Source: Podospora anserina (Eukaryota). Taken from it: 64,000 nt of DNA. Location: NCBI GenBank assembly GCA_017654855.1, contig CM030332.1, forward strand, positions 434,001 to 498,000, given 5' to 3'. Shown here one piece after another: positions 9,090-45,980 of the stretch. The notes beneath the pieces are model-generated. The model made no database searches and was not told where the DNA came from. It was given only the letters and a program-made list of their open reading frames with translations. The first letter of the stretch is position 1. Every line of letters starts with the position of its first letter. Both the position numbers and the translations under genes were made by a program.

Positions 9090-10354
9090 ATGGCTCTTTT
9101 CTGCCATCTCCCCGACACACTACGTCAATTCCCCCGTCTCTTCCGACGTACCCCGAAGATCCCAGCCGCCCGCAAACATACGATGAAAGCAGTAACCGAG
9201 TGCTCCCGTCTGCAAGAGTTGACTCCCTCCATCCTTGTGATCCTACATGTATCCGGTGCTGCTGGAGCTTCCGTTGGCGTTCTCGACGGTCAAACAAACC
9301 AACTGCATGTCGCTGGCTACGGGTATCGCGATGTAGAGGAAATGAGCGTACGGTTTATCACCTTGCCTCTCTCTCGAAAAGCTTCACGGCAGCCGCTATT
9401 GCTCTGTTAGTAGCCGATGGAAAATTGGCATTCGGAGACCGCATGTGTGATATCCTTCCAGGCTTCCACCATGCAAACGACGCAATCAATTCTCAAAGCA
9501 CGTTGCTTGATTTCCTCTCCCGTCGAACCGGTCTTGCAAGCAAGAACGCACTGTGGCAGCAAGACGGACCTGAGATTTTACTCGGTGAGAACGACACGCT
9601 ACCAATGGTCTCCTATATGGAGGCGGCTCAACCATTGGGGGAGCAATGGACTTATAATAACTTCGGCTACGACATTCTAACAAACATCATTGCCTACGCG
9701 TCAGGATAGTCCTGGGGCGAGTTCGTTACTTCTCGAATACTTCAAACGTTGAGCTTGCAAGACACAACGACGGCCGCTCACCCCCCAGAGGAAAATTGGG
9801 CTCGTGGATACATGCCTGGCCCGGATGGGACGCTCACGGGTGTTGGAAGACCCCAAATTTCTGAAGGGACCGTCCAACAAGCAGCCAATGGGGTGAAGAG
9901 TAGTGTCAATGATCTCTTGGTGTATTATAAGGCTGTGTTGGATGCCTGGCGTTTGGAAACAGGCAGTGGAATAAGCCAAGACCAGAACTTGCCACCGCTC
10001 AAGAGTGTCAAAGAACTTCTGACATCACATATACCCCTGGATCCCGACGCTGATGGACAATGGTATAGCGCAGGGTGGGCAACGTCGGGGCCGGACGACT
10101 GTAGCGAGAAGAACGACTACGTTTCCCTGGCCAAGCAGAGCGCCGCCGCCTATGATGACATGTGGACTCGATGGCCAGACCTTGATGTGCCAACCTATGT
10201 CTTTCATTTTGGCACAGATGAGAAGGGTCATATCGAGACTCTCCAGTGGGAGCATGACCCTGATGTGCCGGGCGGTGAAACATTTGTGAAGAAATCCAAT
10301 GAGACCCTTGATCATAGGGTGCCCACGGAGCTCTCAGGAACGGTGAAGAGGTAA
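9090..10354 (+). pseudogene. Beta-lactamase/serine hydrolase family protein, disrupted
   Basis: GASVGVLDG...AGYGYRDVE, then a frameshift near 9340, then TVYHLASLSKSFTAAAIALLV (SxxK), LLDFLSRRTGL, WTYNNFGYDIL (YxN), an in-frame TAG at 9707-9709, and AANGVKSSVNDLL. The C-terminal part looks shortened by deletions. Confidence 0.82.
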
Positions 10355-10838
10355 TGGTGTAAAACTGGGGTGGGATTGAAAAGAGACATGGTGGATTCAG
10401 TATGTATACGTGCCTGTTCCGATGACAGTAACTCTCAAACTGGCTGGAACGGTTTGTAGAAGAAGCAGTTATTATGTGTCCTCGAGGCGTACTAATTTTG
10501 TATTCTTCAATGTATTGACCACTTGGCGGCTAAGATGACCTGATCTTCATTTGACCGCACAAACAACATAGGGACCCATAAATGATATAACAATTGAAAC
10601 ATGGTGAGGTAATGCCGAAAGGCTACCAATTCCGCACTTTCGATATGACATCATAGACATCATCCATCTGCTCGAACCACATAAAGCTCACCGCGCAGTA
10701 ACACGGTATTTGCCTTTTGTGTGACTTCTAAAGACCAACCACAACAACCAAACACTTCTAGATACCATCAAGCTGTTTCCTCTCTCACTTTTTTTCCACG
10801 CATAACACCCACGGACAGAAACCTTACCTACCTACACA

Positions 10839-35545: not shown

Positions 35546-37119
35546 CACAAGCGATCTTTCGCTCCACGTGCCGGACATCCCGGATGTCGATTCCGAAAAT
35601 ACCTCATCACCGGAGAAGGCTCCGACGGTGAAGCGGCGAACTACTCGGTGAACGTCAAGCTGAGTCAGCTGTTCCTTGGGCACTCTTCATGACAATCCAA
35701 CCCAATGAGATTGTACTTAAAAATCCTCTGTCATGAATGGTCCAAATACTTTGCTCACGGAGGTGAATCGGGTTCTCTGTGCCAAGGTTTCTTGAGACGT
35801 CGTCGGTCACCAAAAGTCATCGTCCTACACATGCTGGCACAGAAATACGGTACGTAGTGGTGTGGCCCAAGTGTAGAAGAGATGATGCCGAGTCGGCCCA
35901 AGATATTTATTCGGACCCATCTGCCCCGGACGATCAAGAACGTACATGATTGTCCTCCTGACCCTCCATCTCAGCCTATGATCCTGTTCCGCTGTCGCAT
36001 GAGGAGGGTGGTAAGACGACGCTTCAGCTGCGCGATCTCGGGGTTTCCTGCAGGCAATAAATGCAGCGTTGACAGACAGACAAGGCGGCATTTTGACATT
36101 TCCGACTGTTTGATGGATGGGTCATGCGACAAGGGAATTCCATCTGATGAAGAAGGAGGGGCAATCTCTTCTCCAAATCGGAGCAATGCGATGAGGGATG
36201 TGACGTTAGATGCTACCATGTCGTTGTTAATGTTGTTTTATCTTTCCAAGGTGATATTTTGCTTTATCTTTGGCATTCTTATTTTCTTATCAGTTAGGAT
36301 CCGAGTTGGGCAAGAGCGACGTTGGAAGAAGAGGTTGGGGCTTCGCTCTTGGCTTTCCGTTTTCTTCTTCGTTGACGCAAGAATTCAGCTAGGGCGGCAG
36401 GCCGCTTGGCGGTCTGTGCTGAGGCGTGGGATGCTTCCTGCCCTATCTTTGCTAGCGCCATCGGAACTGTGGGCCATCAAGGTTCTCACTGCGCGGGGCA
36501 TTGTTTGATTGACATGACAGATGCAAGTCACTGCTTGACAGCAATTTCTAGATAGAAGGGATCCCAGGTTCTCAGGTCTGGAGTGAGATTTGTGAAAGCT
36601 TCTGGAAGGGGCATCGAACAACATGAGAGTCGAGTGCATTTTGTGGTATTCGTTAGCAGGCGGCGACTTGATGATGGTGGAGCCGCCGAATCAAGATCTC
36701 AGGTTCTTGACGTTGTATCAATGCTCGTGAAAAATAGACTGGAGGCCAAGGGCAGCCCCCTTTATCAGATCTTACAAAATTCTCTGTCATGTCGGGTCAG
36801 AGTCTGATATCATGTAGTTCCACAGCTTCTAGACAGGTTTTCTACCAGAGGCATCCAATTGTGCAGGTTCACACCTCAGTGAAAAGAACGAAAGACATTT
36901 CGCAAGAAGTGATGTTGAACCATTATATTGTAATATTATTTAAGTATTTGAACTATCTGTCTTTCCTGCTAGATAGGAAGCTTGTTCAGCCAATCCTGAC
37001 AGCCCAGCATCACTGGCGAGATGTCCTCTGCATCAAACTTTGTTAAGGATTACAAGAGATAAATGATACATGTCAAAATACAGTCGGTGACTATTTGCTG
37101 GTATTTACCCCCCCTAAAC

Positions 37120-37716
37120 TTAGAGAACCATGGCAACGATGGCAGCAACACCGGCGGCAAGGCTGAGGCCAGTGATCTGGGCAGCGCCAGCAGTCGAGGT
37201 GGAGGAGGTGGTGGCGGCCTCGGAGTCGGCGCCGGTGTTTGTAGTAGTGACGACGATAAGAGTGGACGAAGCAGTACGATGACCATCGCAGTGCCAGTGA
37301 TCTCCATGAGCCTCACATCCATATGATTCGGTAGGGCTGGGCTTGATGCTACCAGTGCCGGGAGCATCAGTGTGGTCATCCTCATCGTCGGTGTGGTCAT
37401 GATCATGGTCATGGTCATCACCATCACTGTCGTGATCATGGTGAGCTGCACCCGTGGTGACTACAGGAGCCACGCCAGTGGCCGTCCCGGTAGTCACGAC
37501 AGCATCGGTGACCCTGGGTCCCTCACAGTCCCTGAAGTAGTGAGGTTAGTATGCCTTCAGGCTTACAGCACTAATTAAAACCAAAGCTTACCAGTGGTCA
37601 TTGTGAGGCACACAGCCGATGGACTCGGTGGGAGATGGTCCAGGATCGGCCGTGGTCTGCCCCAAAGCGGTGGACAGAGCACCCAACAGCAAAGCGGCAT
37701 ACGTGACGGCCTTCAT
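37120..37716 (-). CDS. Secreted, putatively GPI-anchored His/Asp-rich protein with two CxxHxDHWxC repeats (candidate zinc-binding surface protein), ~178 aa
   Basis: Exon 1 is 37716-37592; intron 37591-37532 (GTAAGC...ACTAAC...CAG); exon 2 is 37531-37120. Signal MKAVTYAALLLGALSTALG; repeats PSPTESIGCVPHNDHWDCEGPR and PSPTESYGCEAHGDHWHCDGHR; HHDHDSDGDDHDHDHDHTDDEDDH tract; S/T stalk and hydrophobic tail. Confidence 0.88.
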
Positions 37717-38305
37717 CTTGGCTTGCGGTGAGTCTTGGGGTTTGGGTGGACGGACAGGTGAGACTGAAGGTGTACGGGCGAGATGGGATGGACCGGATGC
37801 CTCTCTGCGTTATAAGACGGTCTTTAAAGCGAGGTAATACAGCCAGCCACAGCCAACCATCCCATGTCACCATGCCACCCTCAATGTTCATGCGCTGCCC
37901 CAGTGCCGCCCATCACCTCACCGAAACTCCCATGTACCCAGTCAAAAATAGGGACTGCTGCCGTCATTCGAGACAGCATGGCAAGTGGGACGGCTGGCAT
38001 CAGATGAATTTCAAACGAACCATTGGCCGCGAAGTGGTGCCGTTCGCTGCCAAGACACTCCAAGACATTGGTTAACCGATGGGTTTAGCCTGACAGGTCC
38101 GCTTTGAGCAAGACAATGTTGTAGCGAAATGCAGGCTTTGGACAGACGATCAGTGGTCCTCGTTTGTTTGTGCAACAAAGTCGAGGTGTTGGAATGGGGC
38201 GTTGGCTTGTCTTGTCTTTCCAAAACTGATGGGCTTTGACCAGCGTGGAAGGGTGGACCGGAGGACAGAGTGGGTCTCGTAGCCTTGGCTTTTTGTTAGC
38301 GATGG

Positions 38306-38873
38306 CCATCAAGGTTCTCAGCCCGCCGCGCATTTGCCGGGCACCTTGATGGGCAGCTCAAGATTGCTTGCAGTTCTGGGCATCGTTTCAGCCAATCAAC
38401 ACAAAGAGATTTTTTTTTTCTTGCTCAATCCCGCCCTTGACGATGTGGATTTCGTCGCATGTCGCCCAACTCGGCCACTCACCCGCAGCAGCCAGTCTGG
38501 GATTCGCGTGGTGGAGTTGGTCTTGGAGTCACCATGGAGCCCATGGAGCCCATGGAGCAAACGGGATTCGAGCACGCAACGACTCCATCCAAGGCCCCTC
38601 CACGAGCCCCTCTATGCGCTGAATTTTCCCATCTCAGCGATCCCCAAGTCCTTTTTTGTTTTCTGTCTCTCCTTCCCTCGTGGCTATCCCGTGTTCCCAG
38701 TCTTCTATCGTCTCTTTCCCTTCCCCGGAATTCGAACCTACGCCAGGTACCAGACGGCCCACGACCACGCGAGTAACTTGTGCTTCGCGCACAAGACTAC
38801 GGCTACCTACAGGACGCCCACGCCACGACCGCAACGTGCTGTGCACCTTGACGGTCAGTCACAACCTTGACGG
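38306..38873. promoter_or_regulatory. Bidirectional promoter with four ACCTTGAYGG zinc-response-like elements
   Basis: CCATCAAGGT at 38306-38315 and ACCTTGATGG at 38343-38352 form an inverted pair. ACCTTGACGG at 38845-38854 and 38864-38873 form a direct pair. The CAAGGT core matches ZafA/Zap1-type elements. Confidence 0.65.
38532..38558. repeat. (CCATGGAGC)3 tandem 9-mer
   Basis: Three perfect adjacent copies in the middle of the divergent promoter. Confidence 0.85.
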
Positions 38874-39126
38874 CTCGATTTGTGGACACAGCTGCTGCAA
38901 GACCTGGAACTTGGCAGCCACTCCCACCGTCACTGTTCTGTGTAGCCCCCCACGAGCCAGGACATGAGCTGAGGAGAAGCAACCAAAGATACCCCCTCAA
39001 TTGCCTCGCTTTAAAATCCCCTGTGCTATCCCGCGCCTTGTACGCCCATATCTATATCAAGCGCTCCGACAGGTTCACAGCAGCAGCATCACCCTTGGTC
39101 TTCGGTTACATACCTTCTATCACATC

Positions 39127-41076
39127 ATGTTTCAAAGCCTGCCTGCCATACGGGCGTCGCTCCTCTATGGACTGTTAGCCGCTCCATCTCTTAGCCTCGT
39201 CTCAGCAAGCCCTTCACCAATCGACGCCCGTCATGTCGTGACAGATCCTGCCAGAGTAGTTGCACAAGCAACCGTCACTGCTGTGTCAGAGTGCCACGCC
39301 CACGGTACTAATTATTATTGTCAAGCCGGAGTGACAGAGTTTCGCATTGTTGGCTCCGAGACTGCCGCCTCATACACGGATTGCCATCCACACGGCGCAA
39401 AGACGTAAGCACTCGCCCTCCATAGGTCTCACCATACACGGTTTGCTAAAAGGTCTACCCTATAGGTACTGTGTAGGACCAAAGTCTGATGAGGTAGAAA
39501 TTGTCCTTGCTGCCGCTACGGCACCTGCGGTAACAGCATCCCCAACGGCGACTGGCAGTTCGAGCTTGACTGCCGTTAGCGCTTGCCATCTCCACGGGTC
39601 TGAGCTGTAAGTACAACCTCCAACCACTCCATTATTGACCCACCGCTGACACGGCCTTGAAGCCTTTGTATGCACGGGGCAACCGAGTATAAGGTCCACA
39701 CAACTGTCACTGCTACTGCTACACAAGATCTCCCAGCACAGTTTACCGGTTGCCATGCCCATGGTGCTGAGACATACTGCAATGGCCCAACCGGAGAGGA
39801 AGTTGAGATCACCCTGGCCACCGCTGAGGAGGACCACGACGACCACGGTCATGAAGACTCGGAGGAACTTGATTGCCACTTCCACGCTGGCGTCGAGCAT
39901 TGCGTCGGCAAAGGGGGCGAGAAGGTTGCCAACACCTGCGAAAGAACGCAGCGTGACTACAACATCAAGCTTCGTGTTGGCTTGTTGTTCGTCATGTTGG
40001 CTACCAGCTCCATCGGTGTCTTCACTCCCATTCTCATCTCATCCTTTGTGTCGCCCAACCACATCGTATTTACCATTCTCAGACAGTTCGGCACTGGCGT
40101 CATCATCTCAACCGCTTTTGTCCACCTCTACACTCATGCTGTACTAATGTTCCAGAACGAATGCCTCGGCAAGCTGCAGTACGAAGCCACAGCCTCTGCC
40201 ATCCTCATGGCAGGCATCTTCCTTTCCTTCCTCATCGAGTATCTTGGCGTTCGTTTCGTCCAATGGCACCAAGCCAAGCAACAGGCCCACAAGGCTGTTT
40301 CCAGCGACGGTGAGCAGCAAGGCCCGGCCCCAGGCAAAACCGACATGGTCAACATCACCGTTCTTGAAGCCGGCGTCATCTTCCACTCCCTTCTTATCGG
40401 CCTCACTGTAGTCGTCGCCGGTGATTCCTTCTTTGGCACCCTGTTTGCCGTCATTGTTTTCCACCAAATGTTCGAAGGCATCGCTCTTGGCACCCGCATC
40501 GCCGCCCTCGGTCACCCCAGCGCTGCCACCGCCCACAGCGGCGTTCACGGCCACGGTCACGGTCCGGGTCATGCGCACTACCACCCCGAGCCAAAGCCCG
40601 CCGCTGAGATCGCCCCCGCCGGAGAGATCGTTGCCCATGCTCCCAAGGAAGGCCACAACCACGAACACGGCCACGACCACCTCGCCCTCCCTGATGCGCA
40701 CAAGACGGCCAAGAGCGGAAGCGTTTCGTCCTCCGAGAACAGCACCACTGCGGGCGAACTCGCCCCTCACGTCCCCATGTTCAAGAAGCTCATGCTTGCC
40801 TTGGCTTTCGCCTTGGTCACACCCATCGGCATGGGCATCGGTATCGGCGTTCTTCACACATTCAACGGCAACGACCCTTCGACTATCATCGCTATTGGCA
40901 CCCTCGACGCCTTCTCAGCCGGTATCCTCGTGTGGGTTGGTGTGGTGGAGATGTGGGCTCACGACTGGATGTTGGGAGGGGAGATGACCAATTCTGGGCC
41001 GCTGAAGACCGCTCTGGGGTTGATTTCCATGGTGGTTGGCTTGGCGGTCATGAGCTTGTTGGGCAAATGGGCGTAA
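39127..41076 (+). CDS. ZIP-family zinc transporter, ZrfC/Zrt1-like, with signal peptide and extended His/Cys ectodomain
   Basis: Introns 39405-39465 and 39607-39662 join in phase. Five CHxH-x5-C motifs including CHFHAGVEHC; QFGTGVIISTAFVHL, LEAGVIFHSLLIGL, FHQMFEGIALG, FALVTPIGMGIG, and terminal MSLLGKWA. Confidence 0.96.
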
Positions 41077-41853
41077 ATAGGTTTTTGGATATGTGGGTTT
41101 TGTTTATACTGGGCTTTCCGGATATGATGTGGTTTTTTTTTTTGGACAGAAAAGGGATATGATACCATCATGACATATTGTTATCTTGGAGGATTTGGAA
41201 TTTTGGGAGGAAAGGATCTCACTTTTAGCGTTGGGCGTTGCGGCGTCATGCAATTTACATACCTCCAAGGTTGTTGTTCACCTGCGGGTGCAACAGGGAA
41301 ACGATGAAAGGGGAATTTCGGAAATGATAGTAGTTTGGAGGAATGTGTGTTGATAAATGGTCATGTATATTTGATGTATCTACTTGGGGATGAATCTACG
41401 AAGCATGAGGTGACAAACCCGTTGTTTCTTTGTCTGTTCTACTCGGTATTGTGAACACCGAATTCAGCAACCGTGATCCACACAAAACTTGCATGATGTG
41501 AAGGAGACCAAAACTAAAGCTTTGTTTATGTCCAGATATGCTGGGTTGATAGATAATCAGGAGTATAATCAAGATTATATCGCTACACCATGCTCAGTAC
41601 AACTTGTACGACTTTTCATCGACAGTTATGCAATTCAATCTAATTATTACAAGTCGCCTATCTGTCTATAATTTCCGTCTAATCTAACTATCCATCCGGG
41701 TATCTATCAATCAACAAGGTAGTACCACCTTACATACTTTTTCCAGTTGCAACACAAAATAAGCCACCATCAATGTCCACACATCATGCACAATGCTCTG
41801 CGCCCAACCCCATTTCCATGCGTCTTCTTCTTTCCATCTGCTACGTGAGCACC

Positions 41854-44800
41854 TCAAATGCCAGGCCCCCACGTACTGCTCGTCCTCCCGCCCGTCGTCT
41901 CCAGTTCATATCTCCCCAGACTCTCCTGCCAGTTTTGCCAGTCAAAGCCCTCGTCTACGTTCATATCTACATCATCCAAACGACCCATGTTCGGCATCCG
42001 CAGGAAATCAGGCGATCCTGTGTTGATGGGCCACATCCAAGGGGGCACCTGCTCCAGTTGCTGCGGGGACTGCTGCATGCCGCGTTGCTGTTGTTGCTGT
42101 TGTTGCTGTTGCTGCTGCTGTTGGAGATGTTGCTGCTGTGCCTGCTGACGTTGTTGTGGCTGTAGCTGTACCGGTGTTCCTAACGACGAAGTAGAGTTGT
42201 TGTAGTTCGGTGTGGGGGCCGCATTGAAGTCCAGTCCGGATGGAGGATATCCAAAGGCCTGGGTATGGTGAACATAATCGGCCATGTCCCCGTAGAATAA
42301 GGGAGCGAAGTCTGTTGAGACAAAGGGGGTAGAGTTGCTCATGGCCGAGTCAATGTAGTCGATGACCTCGGGCTTAGTCGCCATCCTCACGTGGGTAATG
42401 TCATTCAGTTGTGAGAGTATTGGTTGGGCTTGGCCGGCTAGTTGCTGGTGCTGCCCTCGAGAAGCCGATGTCCCTGATTGTGTCGGTTCATGGACCTCTT
42501 CTGCTTGTTCGTCCAGCAACTCCTGTGGCAGAGGTGGTGCATTGACCAATTTGCGCCACTGTTCGAGAGCCATCACACGTTTCATCGATCCCGGGATTTC
42601 GCGAATACTGGTAGGAGTTGTGTTGCAGCGGTCCCTCAACTCCAGCTCCCGTGCAGCGTCGGGGTCGTTTTGAAGTCGCGCAATCTCAGCTGCACGGTGT
42701 TTAGCTGCCTTGTCGTACAACTTCCTCAAGGGCACCCACACCGCATGATGGCCCGCAAGTTTCTCTAGTTCGGCAGAATTGGGAGCTGCGAACCTTAGAT
42801 TCAACGCTGTCCAAGCACGCTCAGCTTTTGGACCCCATGGCCTATGAGACACCTCGATCAGGGTGTAAGCGACTGCATGCCACTGGCTATAGGTCTGGAA
42901 GAGCCATCGCCATTGCTTGCACCTTTCGTCCGTGTTCAAAATATGAGCGTACTCAAATACCTCGAGAGAGGCATTGAACAGACGACCTCGCACTTCGTCT
43001 GTAAGATACTCATTGCCCGGACCCGGAAACAAAACTGGCTGGTAGATGACAAGCATCATCTTGGCACAGATGACCCGCGTGATGTTGGCGGCTGCCCAGT
43101 ACATGGGCTCTGAACTGTCCTTGAGATATTGTTCCTCCACGCGTCGTTGAGTGTCTACCAGCATTTTTTCCCGCTCTTCAAGCGAAACGCCCGCCTCACG
43201 GGGGTTCACTGTTGCCATGGCCGAAGACATGGTGTGCAAGCTTCTGGCCAAGGAGCACATCTCGTATCGGATCAACGAAAAGGTCATGTCGGTAGTTCCA
43301 ACCCGCGGTTCGGGGAGACATTTGCTCTCTGGGGAGATGTCGGTGTCGTTGAGGTTCATGGGGTATTGCGTATCGAATGTCTGGTCCACAACAGTAAGAT
43401 CCGTCCCTTGATCCTCGGCTGATCTAAGATCCAGCACGCAGACAGCCCAAAAAAGCCTTCTTCGCATCTCAATCTCAAAAGGCGTGATGTTGTCGAAATG
43501 GGTCCCGTCGCGGTGGAGTCCCAATGCTTGGCTGATCCTGATCAGAAGCCCTGTCAAAGTCCAGGCAAACCTTGTATCATCGTGTCGACGAACAAGGACC
43601 AAGAACAGAAGGAATGCTTGTGCCACCACCAGATCCGGCGTCGTTAAGAGGTTAGCTTTGCCAAGCGCTTGTTCCAATGCGAAGCGATATTTTTGAAGTA
43701 GAACATCCTTCTCGGCATCGAAATTACGTCGCACCTGAAAGGAGTGTGAGCATAGTGGTGGCGGATAGGAGTAACAGTGCGTGACCATACCTCTTCTTCA
43801 TCCAAAGATGTTATGGATGCGTAATAGATGGAAAACATCAAGGCCTCGGTGGAGGGCGTGAGAGTGTCTAGGTTGCGTCGGAGATCTCGAATGAGCTTGT
43901 TCATGGTGGGAACATGGAGCACCTTGAGGATCGGATCAACATTTTCCTGGAATACCTGCCAGATAAACGGGATCTGAGATGGTAATGGGTGCAGAGGCCT
44001 GAGATCAACTTCGGACGAGCTATAGCCCATAATCCAAGATTGATGAGATAGGACCGAAGGTTTTACATGCTCAGAGGACTCGGGGGTAGCTTCGTCGTCC
44101 GAGTCTTCCGACTCATCGTGAAAGTGTTCGGATTCCCTTCTGATCTCGTCCAGCTTTGAGAGTGTTAGCCTGGCATGGACATAACACCAGTTGCGGCATC
44201 TTAATAATTACATACCTCATCCGTAATACTGGACCAAAGCCCGCTGGACACATAACGTGTGCCTCCTCGCTCGTTCAACATCAAGCGTCCGAATTGCTTG
44301 TGCACATCCGGTGAAAGCTTGCCAAGCCGGTCCGGCTCGGAAATAGCCGTCCCGGAAATAGTTCTTGTTGGCGCCTTCGGGATGTCGGGCGTGGTGACGT
44401 TGGCGGTGACAGCAGCATGGCTGGTGGAATAAGCAGGAGCAGTTGGTCTCCCCCCAGGTGTATAATGGTCTTGTCCGCTGTTGTACGCCGTCGTCCCCTC
44501 GGGAGAGTTTCCGGCGCTGCGCGCTGCTTCCACTTCAATCTGACCGCTGAGCTCCTCCACAATTCCCTCAAGTTTCCGCAAGCGCCTCATCAACTCCAAC
44601 TCTCGCTCACTCGACGGTTGCTTGGCCGGGGCATTGGGGTCTTTGGGGCGCGGACGACGAGGAGCGCGGCCGGGGGCCGGGAAGATACATGGTATCTGGG
44701 CTCGGCAGCAGTTCGAACATGGCATGTGCTTATCGCAGCGAACCTTCCTCCTCCTGCATGTCACACAGCTGCGCGGATTGAGGGCGTTTGATGGGATTGC

Positions 44801-44962
44801 CGAGGGTGAATAGACGGAGGCGCCGGGAGGAGGATGGCGCGCAAGCGCCAATATTTGCTGCGGATCGTAGCCGTCCTGGGCGCTCGTGATGGAGCCAACA
44901 TCGGTGTTGGGGCTGTCGGCCGATACCAGGCTCCGGCCAGCGATACTTGCACCGTCGGGCAT
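41854..44962 (-). CDS. Zn(II)2Cys6 transcription factor with fungal-specific TF domain
   Basis: CVTCRRRKVRCDKHMPCSNCCRAQIPC; introns 44154-44215 and 43735-43790; ALGLHRDG...EMRRRLFWAVCVLD; poly-Q tail. Confidence 0.95.
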
Positions 44963-45980
44963 CGTGACTTAGAGTTGGGGTGGGATGGAGTGGCGCGCGA
45001 GATGCGGTAAGACAGAGAGGACGAAGGCGGCGGCGGGGTTCCACAGATGAGTAAAGGGCGTCGGGTTTTGTGGATGGCGGTGGCGGTCACCTCGAATCGA
45101 CAAATTCGTATCTGCTCTCGCGTATGAGTGCTCTCAACATGCCATGCGATGCGTGCGAGCGAATGGGCACCGGATGCCCGACCGTATTCATTGATGGTGG
45201 CACGGATATTTTGTGATGCTGTTGTCGACTTGGAGAAGACAAAGGCCTTGCTCCCAAGTCACTAGACTAATTCCTGGTGGGGGCTGACAACGCCTCGAGC
45301 CAAGACTGGAGAGGATTCTCATGGCCCGTGCTCACCTTTCCCACTTTGTTTGGAGTTTCATCAAAGCTTTCAAGTTTCAAAAACACCATCCGACGACCCG
45401 GATCCAGACCATGAATTAGCCTTGGGTTCCTCAAGTTCACCTTTTATCCCCATTGACCTTGCCTACCAAGTTTCCGAATCATCTCCGGGGCCAGCAAACT
45501 CAATTAATGGGCCGGTATTTGTGGCAGCAGTGTCATTTCGAGATGCACATTTTGGCAAAGCCCTATCTAAAAATGTCTCCAGGATAACACGCTACTGACC
45601 AAAAGGTTGCAGAATTCAAGACAGAACAACTAGCCCAGCCTCTCCTCCGCCTTCGGCCCGGTCCTCATAGACACAACATTACTCGGCGTTCGGCGACCAC
45701 TCGGGCTCCAGGGCCTTTTATCTTGCTATCGCATCTCGCCAGTATTCGATGGTCTAGAATTTTGATAGCCGCACGCGCTTCATCTGTAGCCTTGAGATTC
45801 TGGATCTGTCCAATCGTCCTTCACCAAACATGCTTCAAACCCAATCCCCCAAGAATAGCTGGTGTCCGATCGATCGCATCACCAACCATCACGCCATCCA
45901 AACTTGATTCTTCTTCATTGGAACTTTCCTCCAATTCCACGTGTCCCCCTTGTTCTCCTTGTATTGTCGACCGGCCTCCA

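What the first reader, a model, noticed from the sequence alone, without database searches (positions are those of the whole stretch)
37120..41076. Candidate alternative zincophore system: GPI-type CxxHxDHWxC protein divergently paired with a ZrfC-type ZIP transporter
Seen: head-to-head genes 1.4 kb apart. One encodes a secreted His/Asp/Cys-rich surface protein, the other a ZIP transporter with five extracellular CHxH-x5-C motifs, and they share a promoter with four ACCTTGAYGG elements. Established: Candida PRA1-ZRT1 and Aspergillus aspf2-zrfC are divergent, co-regulated zincophore/transporter pairs for zinc uptake at neutral-alkaline pH. The partner here has no Pra1/Aspf2 metalloprotease-like domain and is much smaller. 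Inference: a non-homologous, wall-tethered zinc-capture protein fills the Pra1 slot and hands Zn to the transporter ectodomain. I know of no characterisation of this pairing, but I could not search.
Basis: partly seen in the sequence, partly recalled or inferred. Interest (0 to 1): 0.85.

Follow-up and report, generated by a model that had tools for sequence, protein, structure and literature searches.

The report
Surface zinc-catcher paired with zinc importer
In the fungus Podospora anserina a small histidine-rich cell-surface protein and a zinc importer are read outward from one shared zinc-type switch, a widely conserved but untested pairing that may be a second way for fungi to scavenge zinc.

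Summary
The window is Podospora anserina. A 178-aa protein (identical to PODANS_1_1320) and a 610-aa ZrfC/Zrt1-type ZIP transporter lie head to head, 1410 bp apart. Contigs from four sequencing studies carry both genes with the predicted introns removed. The shared promoter holds four CCRTCAAGGT elements. These fit the ZafA zinc-response motif defined by experiment in Aspergillus fumigatus. The same 10-mer recurs upstream of relatives of the small gene in unrelated metagenome contigs, about 17 times more often than elsewhere in those contigs. The small protein belongs to Pfam PF28209 (His-triad_hairpin), a Pezizomycotina-wide family of small secreted proteins with a GPI-like tail. I found no functional study of it. 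Adjacency to this ZIP type is seen in 22 named genomes across Sordariales, Hypocreales and Glomerellales. It is also seen in 13 of 23 informative metagenome loci, and 10 lack it. The family also occurs in Aspergillus and Fusarium, genera reported to carry PRA1, so it is not a strict PRA1 replacement. The best reading is a zinc-starvation-induced surface zinc-capture protein that feeds the ZIP ectodomain. It resembles Pra1-Zrt1 and streptococcal PhtD-AdcAII. Zinc binding, zinc regulation and hand-over are all inferred.

The parts
37120..37716 (-). Gene for the 178-aa His-triad_hairpin (PF28209) protein. Exon 1 is 37592-37716, the intron 37532-37591, and exon 2 with the stop 37120-37531.
   Evidence: Read from the sequence. 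The spliced product is identical to P0314/PODANS_1_1320. The intron is absent from contigs of 4 of 4 runs. PF28209.1 is precomputed on the cluster representative P0001 and named His-triad_hairpin.
37657..37716 (-). Predicted signal peptide, residues 1-20.
   Evidence: Hydrophobic N-terminus. AF2 models a helix at residues 3-18. Conserved in alignment A1. Cleavage is inferred.
37519..37638 (-). Hairpin module 1: PSPTESIGCVPHNDHWDCEG, residues 27-46, interrupted by the intron. The triad is HxxHxD in Podospora.
   Evidence: AF2 models strands at 36-38 and 41-43, and the pLDDT blocks covering residues 31-50 are 80 and 76. The columns are nearly invariant in A1.
37366..37443 (-). His/Asp-rich acidic linker, residues 72-97.
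   Evidence: Present in most of the 39 family members in A1. 13 of those 39 give weak ZrgA hits below the cut-off.
37282..37341 (-). Hairpin module 2: PSPTESYGCEAHGDHWHCDG, residues 106-125, with a canonical HxxHxH triad between two Cys.
   Evidence: AF2 models strands at 115-117 and 120-122, with pLDDT block 83.
37123..37176 (-). C-terminal hydrophobic tail, residues 161-178, preceded by a Ser/Thr-rich stretch and small residues. This is a GPI-attachment-type signal.
   Evidence: Sequence. AF2 models a helix at 169-178. Conserved in A1. Some orthologues are named 'GPI anchored protein' by their source. Inferred.
37717..39126 (.). Shared 1410-bp divergent promoter region.
   Evidence: Lies between the two start codons. 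Contigs on the small-gene side reach 38190-38279, and contigs on the ZIP side start at 38506-38550.
38306..38315 (+). ZR-type element CCATCAAGGT. The 15-mer GCCATCAAGGTTCTC has 1 mismatch to the ZafA consensus.
   Evidence: The consensus comes from PMC6070888.
38343..38352 (-). ZR-type element. The 15-mer CCCATCAAGGTGCCC has 1 mismatch.
38845..38854 (-). ZR-type element. The 15-mer ACCGTCAAGGTGCAC has 1 mismatch.
38864..38873 (-). ZR-type element with intact core and 5' flank. The 3' flank departs from the A. fumigatus consensus, and the site is not among the matches with 2 or fewer mismatches.
39127..41076 (+). Gene for the ZrfC/Zrt1-type ZIP transporter, 610 aa. The exons are 39127-39404, 39466-39606 and 39663-41076.
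   Evidence: Pfam Zip at E 2e-29. The spliced product is identical to P0336. Both introns are absent from contigs of 4 of 4 runs. Orthologues are 90% identical in Apiosordaria.
39127..39963 (+). N-terminal ectodomain, residues 1 to about 240, introns included. It holds five CHxH-x5-C motifs and an acidic His-rich stretch before the last one.
   Evidence: for the motifs. AF2 models beta-hairpins at the motifs with pLDDT about 80 for residues 50-110 and 130-190. Conservation is shown in A2.
39874..39903 (+). CHFHAGVEHC, residues 211-220.
   Evidence: Invariant in 23 of 23 ZIPs in A2. The same motif lies within the C. albicans Zrt1 151-170 peptide, which is named as the most probable Zn site (PMC9780748, passages).
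36474..36483 (+). Fifth ZR-type element, outside the gene pair. Its 15-mer is identical to the one at 38305-38319.
   Evidence: Its target gene is unknown.

Best explanation
This is a bidirectional zinc-acquisition locus. A ZafA/Zap1-type zinc-starvation regulator is inferred to bind the CCRTCAAGGT elements and to switch on both genes.

One gene encodes a plasma-membrane ZIP importer of the ZrfC/Zrt1 type. Its large ectodomain is a string of small beta-hairpins, each carrying a Cys-flanked His motif.

The other gene encodes a secreted, largely disordered and probably GPI-tethered protein. It displays two histidine-triad hairpins (C-x2-H-x2-H-x-H/D-C) and a His/Asp-rich linker at the cell surface.

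This protein is inferred to bind Zn(II) at the wall or membrane, raise the local zinc concentration, and pass the metal to the higher-affinity sites of the ZIP ectodomain for import.

Shown here: gene structures, spliced contigs, the motifs, promoter elements that are conserved across loci, and conserved linkage to this ZIP type. Inferred: zinc regulation, zinc binding, the GPI anchor and metal transfer.
For: 1. Gene models. Spliced contigs cover both genes in 4 of 4 runs from 4 studies. The products are identical to stored P. anserina proteins.

2. Promoter elements in the window. There are four copies in 1410 bp. The window holds 5 against 0.41 expected, and 0 of 100 shuffles reach 5. Three of the four fit the 15-bp ZafA ZR consensus with 1 mismatch and an intact CARGGT core. 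In A. fumigatus that core is essential for ZafA binding. Mutating three such motifs in the aspf2-zrfC divergent promoter cut reporter expression more than 500-fold (PMC6070888, passages).

3. Promoter elements elsewhere. The exact 10-mer occurs 29 times in 41.3 kb upstream of relatives of the small gene, across 34 distinct metagenome loci. It occurs 11 times in the other 271 kb of the same loci, so 0.70 against 0.041 per kb. It is also present upstream in loci without a ZIP: L008, L038, L053, L006 and L023.

4. Linkage in named genomes. Locus tags or accession numbers of the small protein and the ZIP are consecutive in 22 genomes. Twelve come, among them Thermothelomyces, Staphylotrichum, Fusarium decemcellulare, Verticillium albo-atrum, Colletotrichum jinshuiense and Phialemonium.

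5. Linkage in metagenomes. Of 34 distinct loci, 11 have a divergent ZIP 0.9-1.7 kb away and 2 have a tandem ZIP.

6. Metal-binding chemistry of like motifs. The Aspf2 C-terminal peptide PNCHTHEGGQLHCT is that protein's strongest Zn site. The Zrt1 peptide containing CHFHAGVEHC binds Zn more stably than the Pra1 tail (PMC9780748, passages). HxxHxH triads of PhtD bind Zn through three His and one Glu and pass it to AdcAII (PMC3842936, abstract and passages).

7. Structure models. Both hairpin modules of the small protein have pLDDT blocks of 76-83 in an otherwise disordered chain. The ZIP motifs are also modelled as hairpins.

8. Pfam labels the family His-triad_hairpin.
Against: - There is no expression data under zinc limitation and no metal-binding data for any member of the family. 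The only paper that holds the motif gives an AlphaFold3 zinc prediction for Beauveria BBA_01910.
- 10 of 23 informative metagenome loci have no ZIP within the flanks held. In three of these clusters the divergent neighbour is a CARME-family methyltransferase. In one it is a paralogue.
- 7 of those 10 ZIP-less clusters lack the exact 10-mer, though CAAGGT cores are denser upstream.
- Much of the conserved adjacency could be inherited gene order within Sordariomycetes.
- In Madurella mycetomatis the two family members lie on contigs of different length from the listed ZIP.
- Similarity of the small protein to the ZIP ectodomain is not significant: hhalign probability 0.7%, E 0.08.
- 0 of 39 family members hit the streptococcal His-triad model at E of 1 or less.
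- In an oxidising extracellular setting the Cys pairs may be disulfides rather than ligands.
- Two of the four elements lie inside the stretch covered by ZIP-side contigs, so they may lie within a 5' leader.
Confidence: 0.55

Rival explanations
1. The protein is zinc-regulated and binds zinc but does not feed the transporter. It could act as a wall-bound buffer or store, as a shield against zinc shock when a starved cell with high ZIP levels meets zinc again, or as a means of withholding zinc from competing microbes.
For: The same promoter elements and motifs apply as for the main reading. Family members stand without a ZIP in 10 of 23 informative loci yet often keep the element, so the protein can work without a linked partner. 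Repeat number varies from 2 to 8 in the sequences seen, as expected for a capacity device.
Against: Head-to-head or tandem linkage to one ZIP type persists across several orders and in two orientations. The known analogues with like motifs deliver metal to an importer.
Confidence: 0.2
2. The protein serves another metal (Cu, Ni, Co or Fe) or has a non-metal surface role such as adhesion or wall structure. In that case the zinc reading is driven only by its neighbour.
For: His- and Cys-rich peptides of this kind also bind Ni(II). In the feature search, cell-wall proteins for iron and haem uptake appear as weak look-alikes at scores 0.79-0.80. The ZIP is labelled 'zinc/iron' in some records.
Against: The promoter element matches the zinc regulator's site and is conserved upstream of family members even without a ZIP. 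The Aspf2 tail prefers Zn over Ni. Atlas scores below 0.9 are leads only.
Confidence: 0.1
3. The adjacency is inherited gene order without functional coupling. The ZIP is zinc-regulated, and the small gene merely shares the intergenic region.
For: Most linked cases lie in one class, Sordariomycetes. Other lineages show other conserved neighbours, such as CARME in L008, L013 and L036.
Against: The 10-mer lies upstream of the small gene in ZIP-less loci too. Linkage survives in a different orientation in L024/L045 and L037. Two elements lie about 590-630 bp from the small gene's ATG, within the 1.2 kb range in which ZR motifs act in A. fumigatus.
Confidence: 0.1

Closest known systems
Candida albicans PRA1-ZRT1 and Aspergillus fumigatus aspf2-zrfC zincophore/transporter loci
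   Same: A divergent gene pair shares a promoter with ZafA/Zap1-type elements. The transporter is of the same ZIP type, with an N-terminal ectodomain that contains CHFHAGVEHC. The partner is secreted and carries Cys-flanked His motifs like the Zn-binding C-terminal tails of Pra1 and Aspf2.
   Different: The partner is 178 aa, has no HRXXH metalloprotease-like domain and is mostly disordered. It has two hairpin modules and a GPI-type tail, so it is probably tethered rather than released. The family coexists with PRA1-bearing genera.
Streptococcal polyhistidine-triad proteins (PhtD) with the AdcAII zinc importer component
   Same: A surface protein is built of short beta-strand units carrying HxxHxH triads. 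Its gene is linked to a zinc-uptake component, and it is proposed to scavenge Zn and release it to the importer (PMC3842936). Pfam names the fungal domain His-triad_hairpin.
   Different: The host is a eukaryote. The triad lies between two Cys. The tether is a GPI-type tail. The partner is a ZIP, not an ABC-system binding protein. No significant sequence match was found: 0 of 39 members hit PF04270 at E of 1 or less, and no Pht chain is among the 5 PDB hits at E of 10 or less.
Pfam PF28209 His-triad_hairpin family (uncharacterised fungal 'GPI anchored protein' entries)
   Same: The window protein's cluster carries PF28209.1. 56 of 58 first-search hits and all 120 listed profile hits carry it. 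The architecture is shared: signal peptide, 2-8 hairpins, HD-rich linkers and a hydrophobic tail.
   Different: Nothing differs. It is a member. In Podospora the first triad is HxxHxD. My searches found no function on record for the family.

Membership tests
Pfam PF28209 His-triad_hairpin | Match to the family model. | tested here: met
   PF28209.1 is precomputed on P0001, the representative of the 90% cluster that contains the window protein P0314. The Atlas names the family. The local Pfam copy lacks the model, so the scan could not be repeated.
Pfam PF28209 His-triad_hairpin | Repeated Cys-flanked HxxHxH hairpin. | tested here: met
   Two motifs lie at residues 35-44 and 114-123. Both are modelled as beta-hairpins.
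Pra1/Aspf2 zincophore | HRXXH metalloprotease-like domain of about 300 aa. | tested here: not met
   No Pfam family reaches its cut-off on either exon or on 5 orthologues. The protein is 178 aa and mostly disordered.
Pra1/Aspf2 zincophore | Divergent pairing with a Zrt1/ZrfC-type ZIP under zinc-response elements. | tested here: met
   Conserved in other genomes.
Pra1/Aspf2 zincophore | Zn(II) binding and Zrt1-dependent re-association with the cell. | not testable with these tools
   The one complex prediction was not folded by the tool.
Streptococcal histidine triad (PF04270) | Match to the Strep_his_triad model. | tested here: not met
   0 of 39 members of A1 match at E of 1 or less. A Dothideomycete relative matches at E 0.31.
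Streptococcal histidine triad (PF04270) | HxxHxH motif on a short beta unit. | tested here: met
   Module 2 reads HGDHWH. Module 1 reads HNDHWD. Both are modelled as hairpins. The motif definition comes from PMC3842936.
ZrfC/Zrt1-type ZIP (the transporter) | ZIP domain. | tested here: met
   PF02535 at E 2e-29, 103 bits, against a cut-off of 35.1.
ZrfC/Zrt1-type ZIP (the transporter) | Long N-terminal ectodomain with Cys/His zinc-binding motifs, including CHFHAGVEHC. | tested here: met
   Five motifs are present. The last is invariant in 23 of 23 sequences and is the same as in the Zrt1 151-170 peptide.
ZrfC/Zrt1-type ZIP (the transporter) | Induction at neutral or alkaline pH through PacC/Rim101. 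| tested here: inconclusive
   GCCARG (consensus recalled) occurs 6 times in the 1.41-kb intergenic region, against about 2 per kb in the whole window. This is not a significant excess.
ZafA/Zap1 regulon | ZR motif with a CARGGT core within 1.2 kb of the start codon. | tested here: met
   Four cores lie 263-821 bp from the ZIP ATG and 590-1148 bp from the small gene's ATG. Three fit the 15-mer with 1 mismatch. The criteria come from PMC6070888.
ZafA/Zap1 regulon | Induction under zinc starvation that depends on the regulator. | not testable with these tools
   No zinc-limitation data set for Podospora or Neurospora was found.
GPI-anchored wall or membrane protein | N-terminal signal peptide, C-terminal hydrophobic signal after small residues, Ser/Thr-rich stalk. 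| tested here: inconclusive
   All the features are visible and conserved. No GPI predictor was available, and attachment has not been shown.

The most novel reading that the evidence does not exclude
GPI-tethered histidine-triad hairpin proteins are a Pezizomycotina-wide class of surface zinc receptors and the eukaryotic counterpart of streptococcal Pht proteins. They load ZrfC/Zrt1-type ZIP importers by swapping ligands with the look-alike hairpins of the transporter's own ectodomain. In lineages that lost PRA1 (Neurospora, and probably Podospora) they are the main extracellular zinc-capture device. The ZIP ectodomain and the free protein may share an origin in the same hairpin module.
Probability: 0.3. 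Interest if true: 0.8.

Novelty: new variant of a known kind. Interest (0 to 1): 0.65.

Why it matters
Fungal extracellular zinc capture is understood through a single protein family, Pra1/Aspf2. Many fungi lack it, among them Neurospora, Histoplasma, Paracoccidioides and Emmonsia, and it is not known what they use instead.

This locus offers a concrete and genetically tractable candidate in two model fungi, Podospora and Neurospora. It has a defined partner transporter and defined promoter elements. It also links the chemistry of the Pra1 and Aspf2 tails, the Zrt1 ectodomain and bacterial Pht proteins into one motif class.

If confirmed, it would give a function to a Pfam family of several hundred uncharacterised proteins. 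It would also show that the 'capture protein next to importer' layout has arisen with a different capture protein.

Tried and rejected
- Own genome: none is held. The presence or absence of a PRA1 orthologue in P. anserina could therefore not be tested. Of the 37 frames of 200 aa or more in the window, I scanned only 11 against Pfam. None was Pra1-like.
- Complex prediction of the ZIP ectodomain, the small protein and Zn: the tool did not fold it. This gives no information either way, and I did not repeat it.
- Profile-profile comparison of the family (A1) with the ZIPs (A2): probability 0.7%, E 0.08. The repeats line up with ZIP motifs 3 and 5, but this is not evidence of homology.
- PDB sequence search with A1: 5 hits at E of 10 or less, all spurious or low-complexity, and no Pht.
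- Pfam scan of A1 members: only weak hits below the cut-off (ZrgA in 13 of 39).
- Longer family members: none of the 10 scanned carries another Pfam domain above its cut-off. The 150 best of 294 representatives are all 494 aa or shorter, with no ZIP fusion.
- Degenerate 15-bp ZafA consensus with up to 2 mismatches: not enriched over the window, 143 against 134 expected. Only the specific 10-mer is enriched.
- PacC-type sites: no significant excess.
- Sequencing runs: no RNA holder is listed on record. The kind of the four laid runs is a guess.
- The stretch 38280-38505 has almost no contig cover in the laid runs. I draw no conclusion from this.
- IQ-TREE did not finish in time, so I used a FastTree tree of 69 rows. 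I left out 60 of the 120 listed ZIPs (unnamed rows, cut or mis-fused models, and most of the many Fusarium and Colletotrichum rows) and added 9 metagenome ZIP pieces. On that tree the ZIPs I had marked as linked fell in one Sordariales-Coniochaeta clade of 37 rows. One search then showed linkage in Hypocreales, Glomerellales and Phialemonium ZIPs outside that clade, so I withdrew the 'one clade' reading.
- A second Sordariales ZIP paralogue clade of 7 rows might have its own small partner. In Chaetomium tenue the two lie on contigs of the same length. M. mycetomatis does not support this. It remains a lead.
- Earlier-findings look-ups: empty.
- Supplementary tables that could bear on this were not readable. 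These are Table S1 of PMC5751234 (PRA1/ZRT1 presence in 102 species), the ZafA regulon tables of PMC6070888 and the in-vivo gene lists of PMC4595289.

Full report
**What is there**

The region holds two divergent genes.

The small gene is on the minus strand. An ATG at 37716 opens a two-exon gene (exon 1 37592-37716, intron 37532-37591, exon 2 to the stop at 37120-37122). The spliced product is 178 aa and is letter-for-letter identical to P0314, annotated PODANS_1_1320 of Podospora anserina S mat+. The window is therefore P. anserina chromosome 1.

The ZIP gene is on the plus strand. An ATG at 39127 opens a three-exon gene (39127-39404, 39466-39606, 39663-41076). Its product is 610 aa and identical to the stored protein P0336. 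It matches Pfam Zip at E 2e-29.

Contigs of four public runs from four studies join 37530/1 to 37591/2, 39404 to 39466 and 39606 to 39663, with GT..AG ends. This is what spliced transcripts of both genes would give. The runs are only guessed to be RNA.

The two start codons are 1410 bp apart.

**The small protein**

Its parts, in order, are:
- a hydrophobic N-terminus;
- PSPTESIGCVPHNDHWDCEG at residues 27-46;
- a Thr/Val/Ala stretch;
- a His/Asp-rich linker at residues 72-97;
- PSPTESYGCEAHGDHWHCDG at residues 106-125;
- a Ser/Thr-rich stretch;
- an 18-residue hydrophobic C-terminus.

AlphaFold2, run with a 39-sequence alignment, gives a mostly disordered chain (mean pLDDT 60.7). It contains two small beta-hairpins exactly at the two motifs, with 10-residue pLDDT blocks of 76-83, and helices only at the two hydrophobic ends.

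No family in the local Pfam copy reaches its cut-off. The precomputed annotation of its cluster carries PF28209.1. The protein atlas names that family His-triad_hairpin, Pfam 38.1.

The family is modest in size and uniform in form:
- 294 representatives at E of 1e-3 or less among 1.84 billion proteins, and 177 at 1e-10 or less;
- the best 150 are all 494 aa or shorter;
- none of the 10 scanned carries another domain above its cut-off;
- members have 2 to 8 hairpins in the sequences I saw.

Named members come from Sordariomycetes, Leotiomycetes, Dothideomycetes, Eurotiomycetes (Aspergillus udagawae, A. ambiguus, A. affinis, Monascus, Thermomyces, Blastomyces parvus), lichen-forming Lecanoromycetes and Orbilia.

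**The transporter**

The five CHxH-x5-C motifs are real, at residues 56, 86, 133, 170 and 211. The last one, CHFHAGVEHC, is invariant in 23 of 23 aligned orthologues. The same motif lies in the C. albicans Zrt1 peptide 151-170, which a potentiometric and NMR study names as the most probable Zn(II) site of that transporter. That study reports it binds Zn more stably than the Pra1 tail (PMC9780748, passages).

The AlphaFold2 model is poor for the membrane part, because only 23 sequences were available (mean pLDDT 50.5). It models the ectodomain at residues 50-110 and 130-190 with pLDDT about 80, as strings of hairpins centred on the motifs.

**The promoter**

ACCTTGAYGG, which is CCRTCAAGGT on the other strand, occurs 5 times in the window against 0.41 expected. 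Four copies lie between the genes.

In A. fumigatus the zinc regulator ZafA binds a 15-bp motif, DYYVYCARGGTVYYY. Its CARGGT core is essential. Mutating three such motifs in the aspf2-zrfC divergent promoter abolished induction of both reporters. The motifs act within about 1.2 kb of the start codon (PMC6070888, passages).

Three of the four Podospora sites fit that 15-mer with one mismatch. The fourth keeps the core and the 5' flank. All four lie within 1.15 kb of both start codons.

The loosely degenerate consensus is not enriched over the window as a whole. The signal is the specific 10-mer.

**Is the element and the pairing conserved?**

A scan of metagenome contigs with the family alignment gave 55 loci, which collapse to 34 distinct ones.

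The exact 10-mer occurs 29 times in the 41.3 kb that lie within 1.5 kb upstream of the small gene. It occurs 11 times in the remaining 271 kb of the same loci. It is present upstream in several loci that have no ZIP nearby: L008, L038 and L053, and also the short L006 and L023.

For linkage, the 34 distinct loci split as follows:

| Class | Loci |
|---|---|
| ZrfC-type ZIP divergent, 0.9-1.7 kb upstream | 11 |
| ZIP in tandem downstream (L024/L045, L037) | 2 |
| At least 3.5 kb upstream and 1.4 kb downstream held, no ZIP | 10 |
| Too short to tell | 11 |

In three of the ZIP-less clusters the divergent neighbour is a CARME-family methyltransferase. In L004 it is a seven-hairpin paralogue.

In named genomes, consecutive locus tags or accession numbers show adjacency in 22 cases.
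- Twelve come: MYCTH_2307967/66, NEMBOFW57_003644/45, VTJ49DRAFT_1719/20, V8F20_007862/63, B0H66DRAFT_540441/40, FDECE_3107/08, ACHAQH_009835/36, EsH8_I_000211/12, VTK73DRAFT_10312/11, VTK26DRAFT_729/30, VTI74DRAFT_5402/03 and OQA88_3512/13.
- Ten come: five Podospora species, Cercophora samala, two N. tetrasperma strains, N. intermedia and an N. crassa strain.

The pairing therefore spans Sordariales, Phialemonium, Hypocreales and Glomerellales. It is not universal for the family. Madurella mycetomatis is a case where the listed proteins lie on contigs of different length.

**Relation to Pra1**

A pan-ZIP study states that N. crassa keeps a ZIP of the 'zincophore locus' cluster but has lost PRA1, and that in F. 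graminearum PRA1-ZRT1 synteny is broken (PMC5751234, passages). In Neurospora and in Fusarium decemcellulare the His-triad_hairpin gene is the ZIP's neighbour.

The family is also present in Aspergillus, where aspf2-zrfC synteny is reported for all species then sequenced, and in Fusarium. It is therefore not simply the alternative to Pra1.

I could not test P. anserina itself for PRA1, because no genome is held.

**Mechanism**

The motif C-x2-H-x2-H-x-H-C combines two features:
- an HxxHxH triad, as in streptococcal Pht proteins. There the triad plus a Glu binds Zn. PhtD, whose gene lies in an operon with adcAII, passes Zn to AdcAII (PMC3842936, abstract and passages).
- a flanking Cys pair, as in the Aspf2 tail (2 Cys and 2 His bind Zn) and the Zrt1 ectodomain motif.

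The most economical reading is a zinc-starvation-induced, surface-tethered zinc catcher that feeds the ZIP ectodomain.

Neither homology to Pht nor homology to the ZIP ectodomain is statistically supported. These are likenesses of motif and layout. Zinc regulation, zinc binding, the anchor and the transfer are all inferred. The single complex prediction was not run by the tool.

**Novelty**

The domain family is catalogued in Pfam. One paper notes the motif in a Beauveria protein, with an AlphaFold3 zinc prediction (PMC12099005, passage).

Seven full-text searches found no study of the family's function, of its regulation by zinc, or of its pairing with ZIP genes. Subscription journals and supplements were not covered.

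I rate it a new variant of a known kind: the syntenic zinc-capture-protein and ZIP locus, with a different capture protein.

Noticed in passing
window 39127-39669: One stored 468-aa ZIP form in the P. anserina cluster (P0330) equals the last 468 residues of the 610-aa product. It lacks the first two exons, with the signal peptide and three of the five ectodomain motifs. Spliced contigs support the 610-aa three-exon model.
   Followed up: yes
window 36474-36483: A fifth zinc-response-type element lies about 640 bp beyond the 3' end of the small gene. It shares a 17-base stretch with the site at 38306. No Pfam-recognisable frame lies beside it, and its target is unknown.
   Followed up: partly
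L008:7351-8436, L013:7738-8343, L036:7655-9226: In three distinct ZIP-less metagenome loci the divergent upstream neighbour of the His-triad_hairpin gene is a carnosine N-methyltransferase-family (PF07942) gene. This may be plain synteny within one lineage or a second functional pairing.
   Followed up: no
L004:6986-7772 and 10001-10498: Two family members lie head to head about 2.2 kb apart. One has seven CEAHGDHWHCPxGV-type hairpins and the other has PSPTES-type hairpins. The two repeat subtypes therefore coexist in one genome.
   Followed up: no
ZIP proteins P0104, P0108, P0110, P0113, P0121, P0145, P0175: Sordariales carry a second ZrfC-type ZIP paralogue clade, about 50% identical to the window's ZIP and separate from the clade that holds it on a FastTree tree. 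Some of these species also have a second His-triad_hairpin gene. What lies next to this paralogue is unknown.
   Followed up: partly
window 41854-44968, minus strand: The right-hand neighbour of the ZIP is a Zn2Cys6 fungal transcription factor (Zn_clus and Fungal_trans domains) with a long poly-Gln tract. No link to zinc homeostasis is evident.
   Followed up: no
window 37024-38279 and 38506-41200: Contigs on the small-gene side extend about 480-560 bases beyond its ATG. Contigs on the ZIP side start about 580-620 bases before its ATG. Both messages may therefore have long leaders, and two of the four elements lie inside the ZIP-side contigs. Contigs cannot fix transcript ends.
   Followed up: no
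PMC4595289, Table 4: Several 'secreted hypothetical proteins' are induced together with PRA1 and ZRT1 in Blastomyces during mouse infection. Blastomyces parvus has a His-triad_hairpin member, so one of these could belong to the family. I could not check this without the sequences.
   Followed up: no
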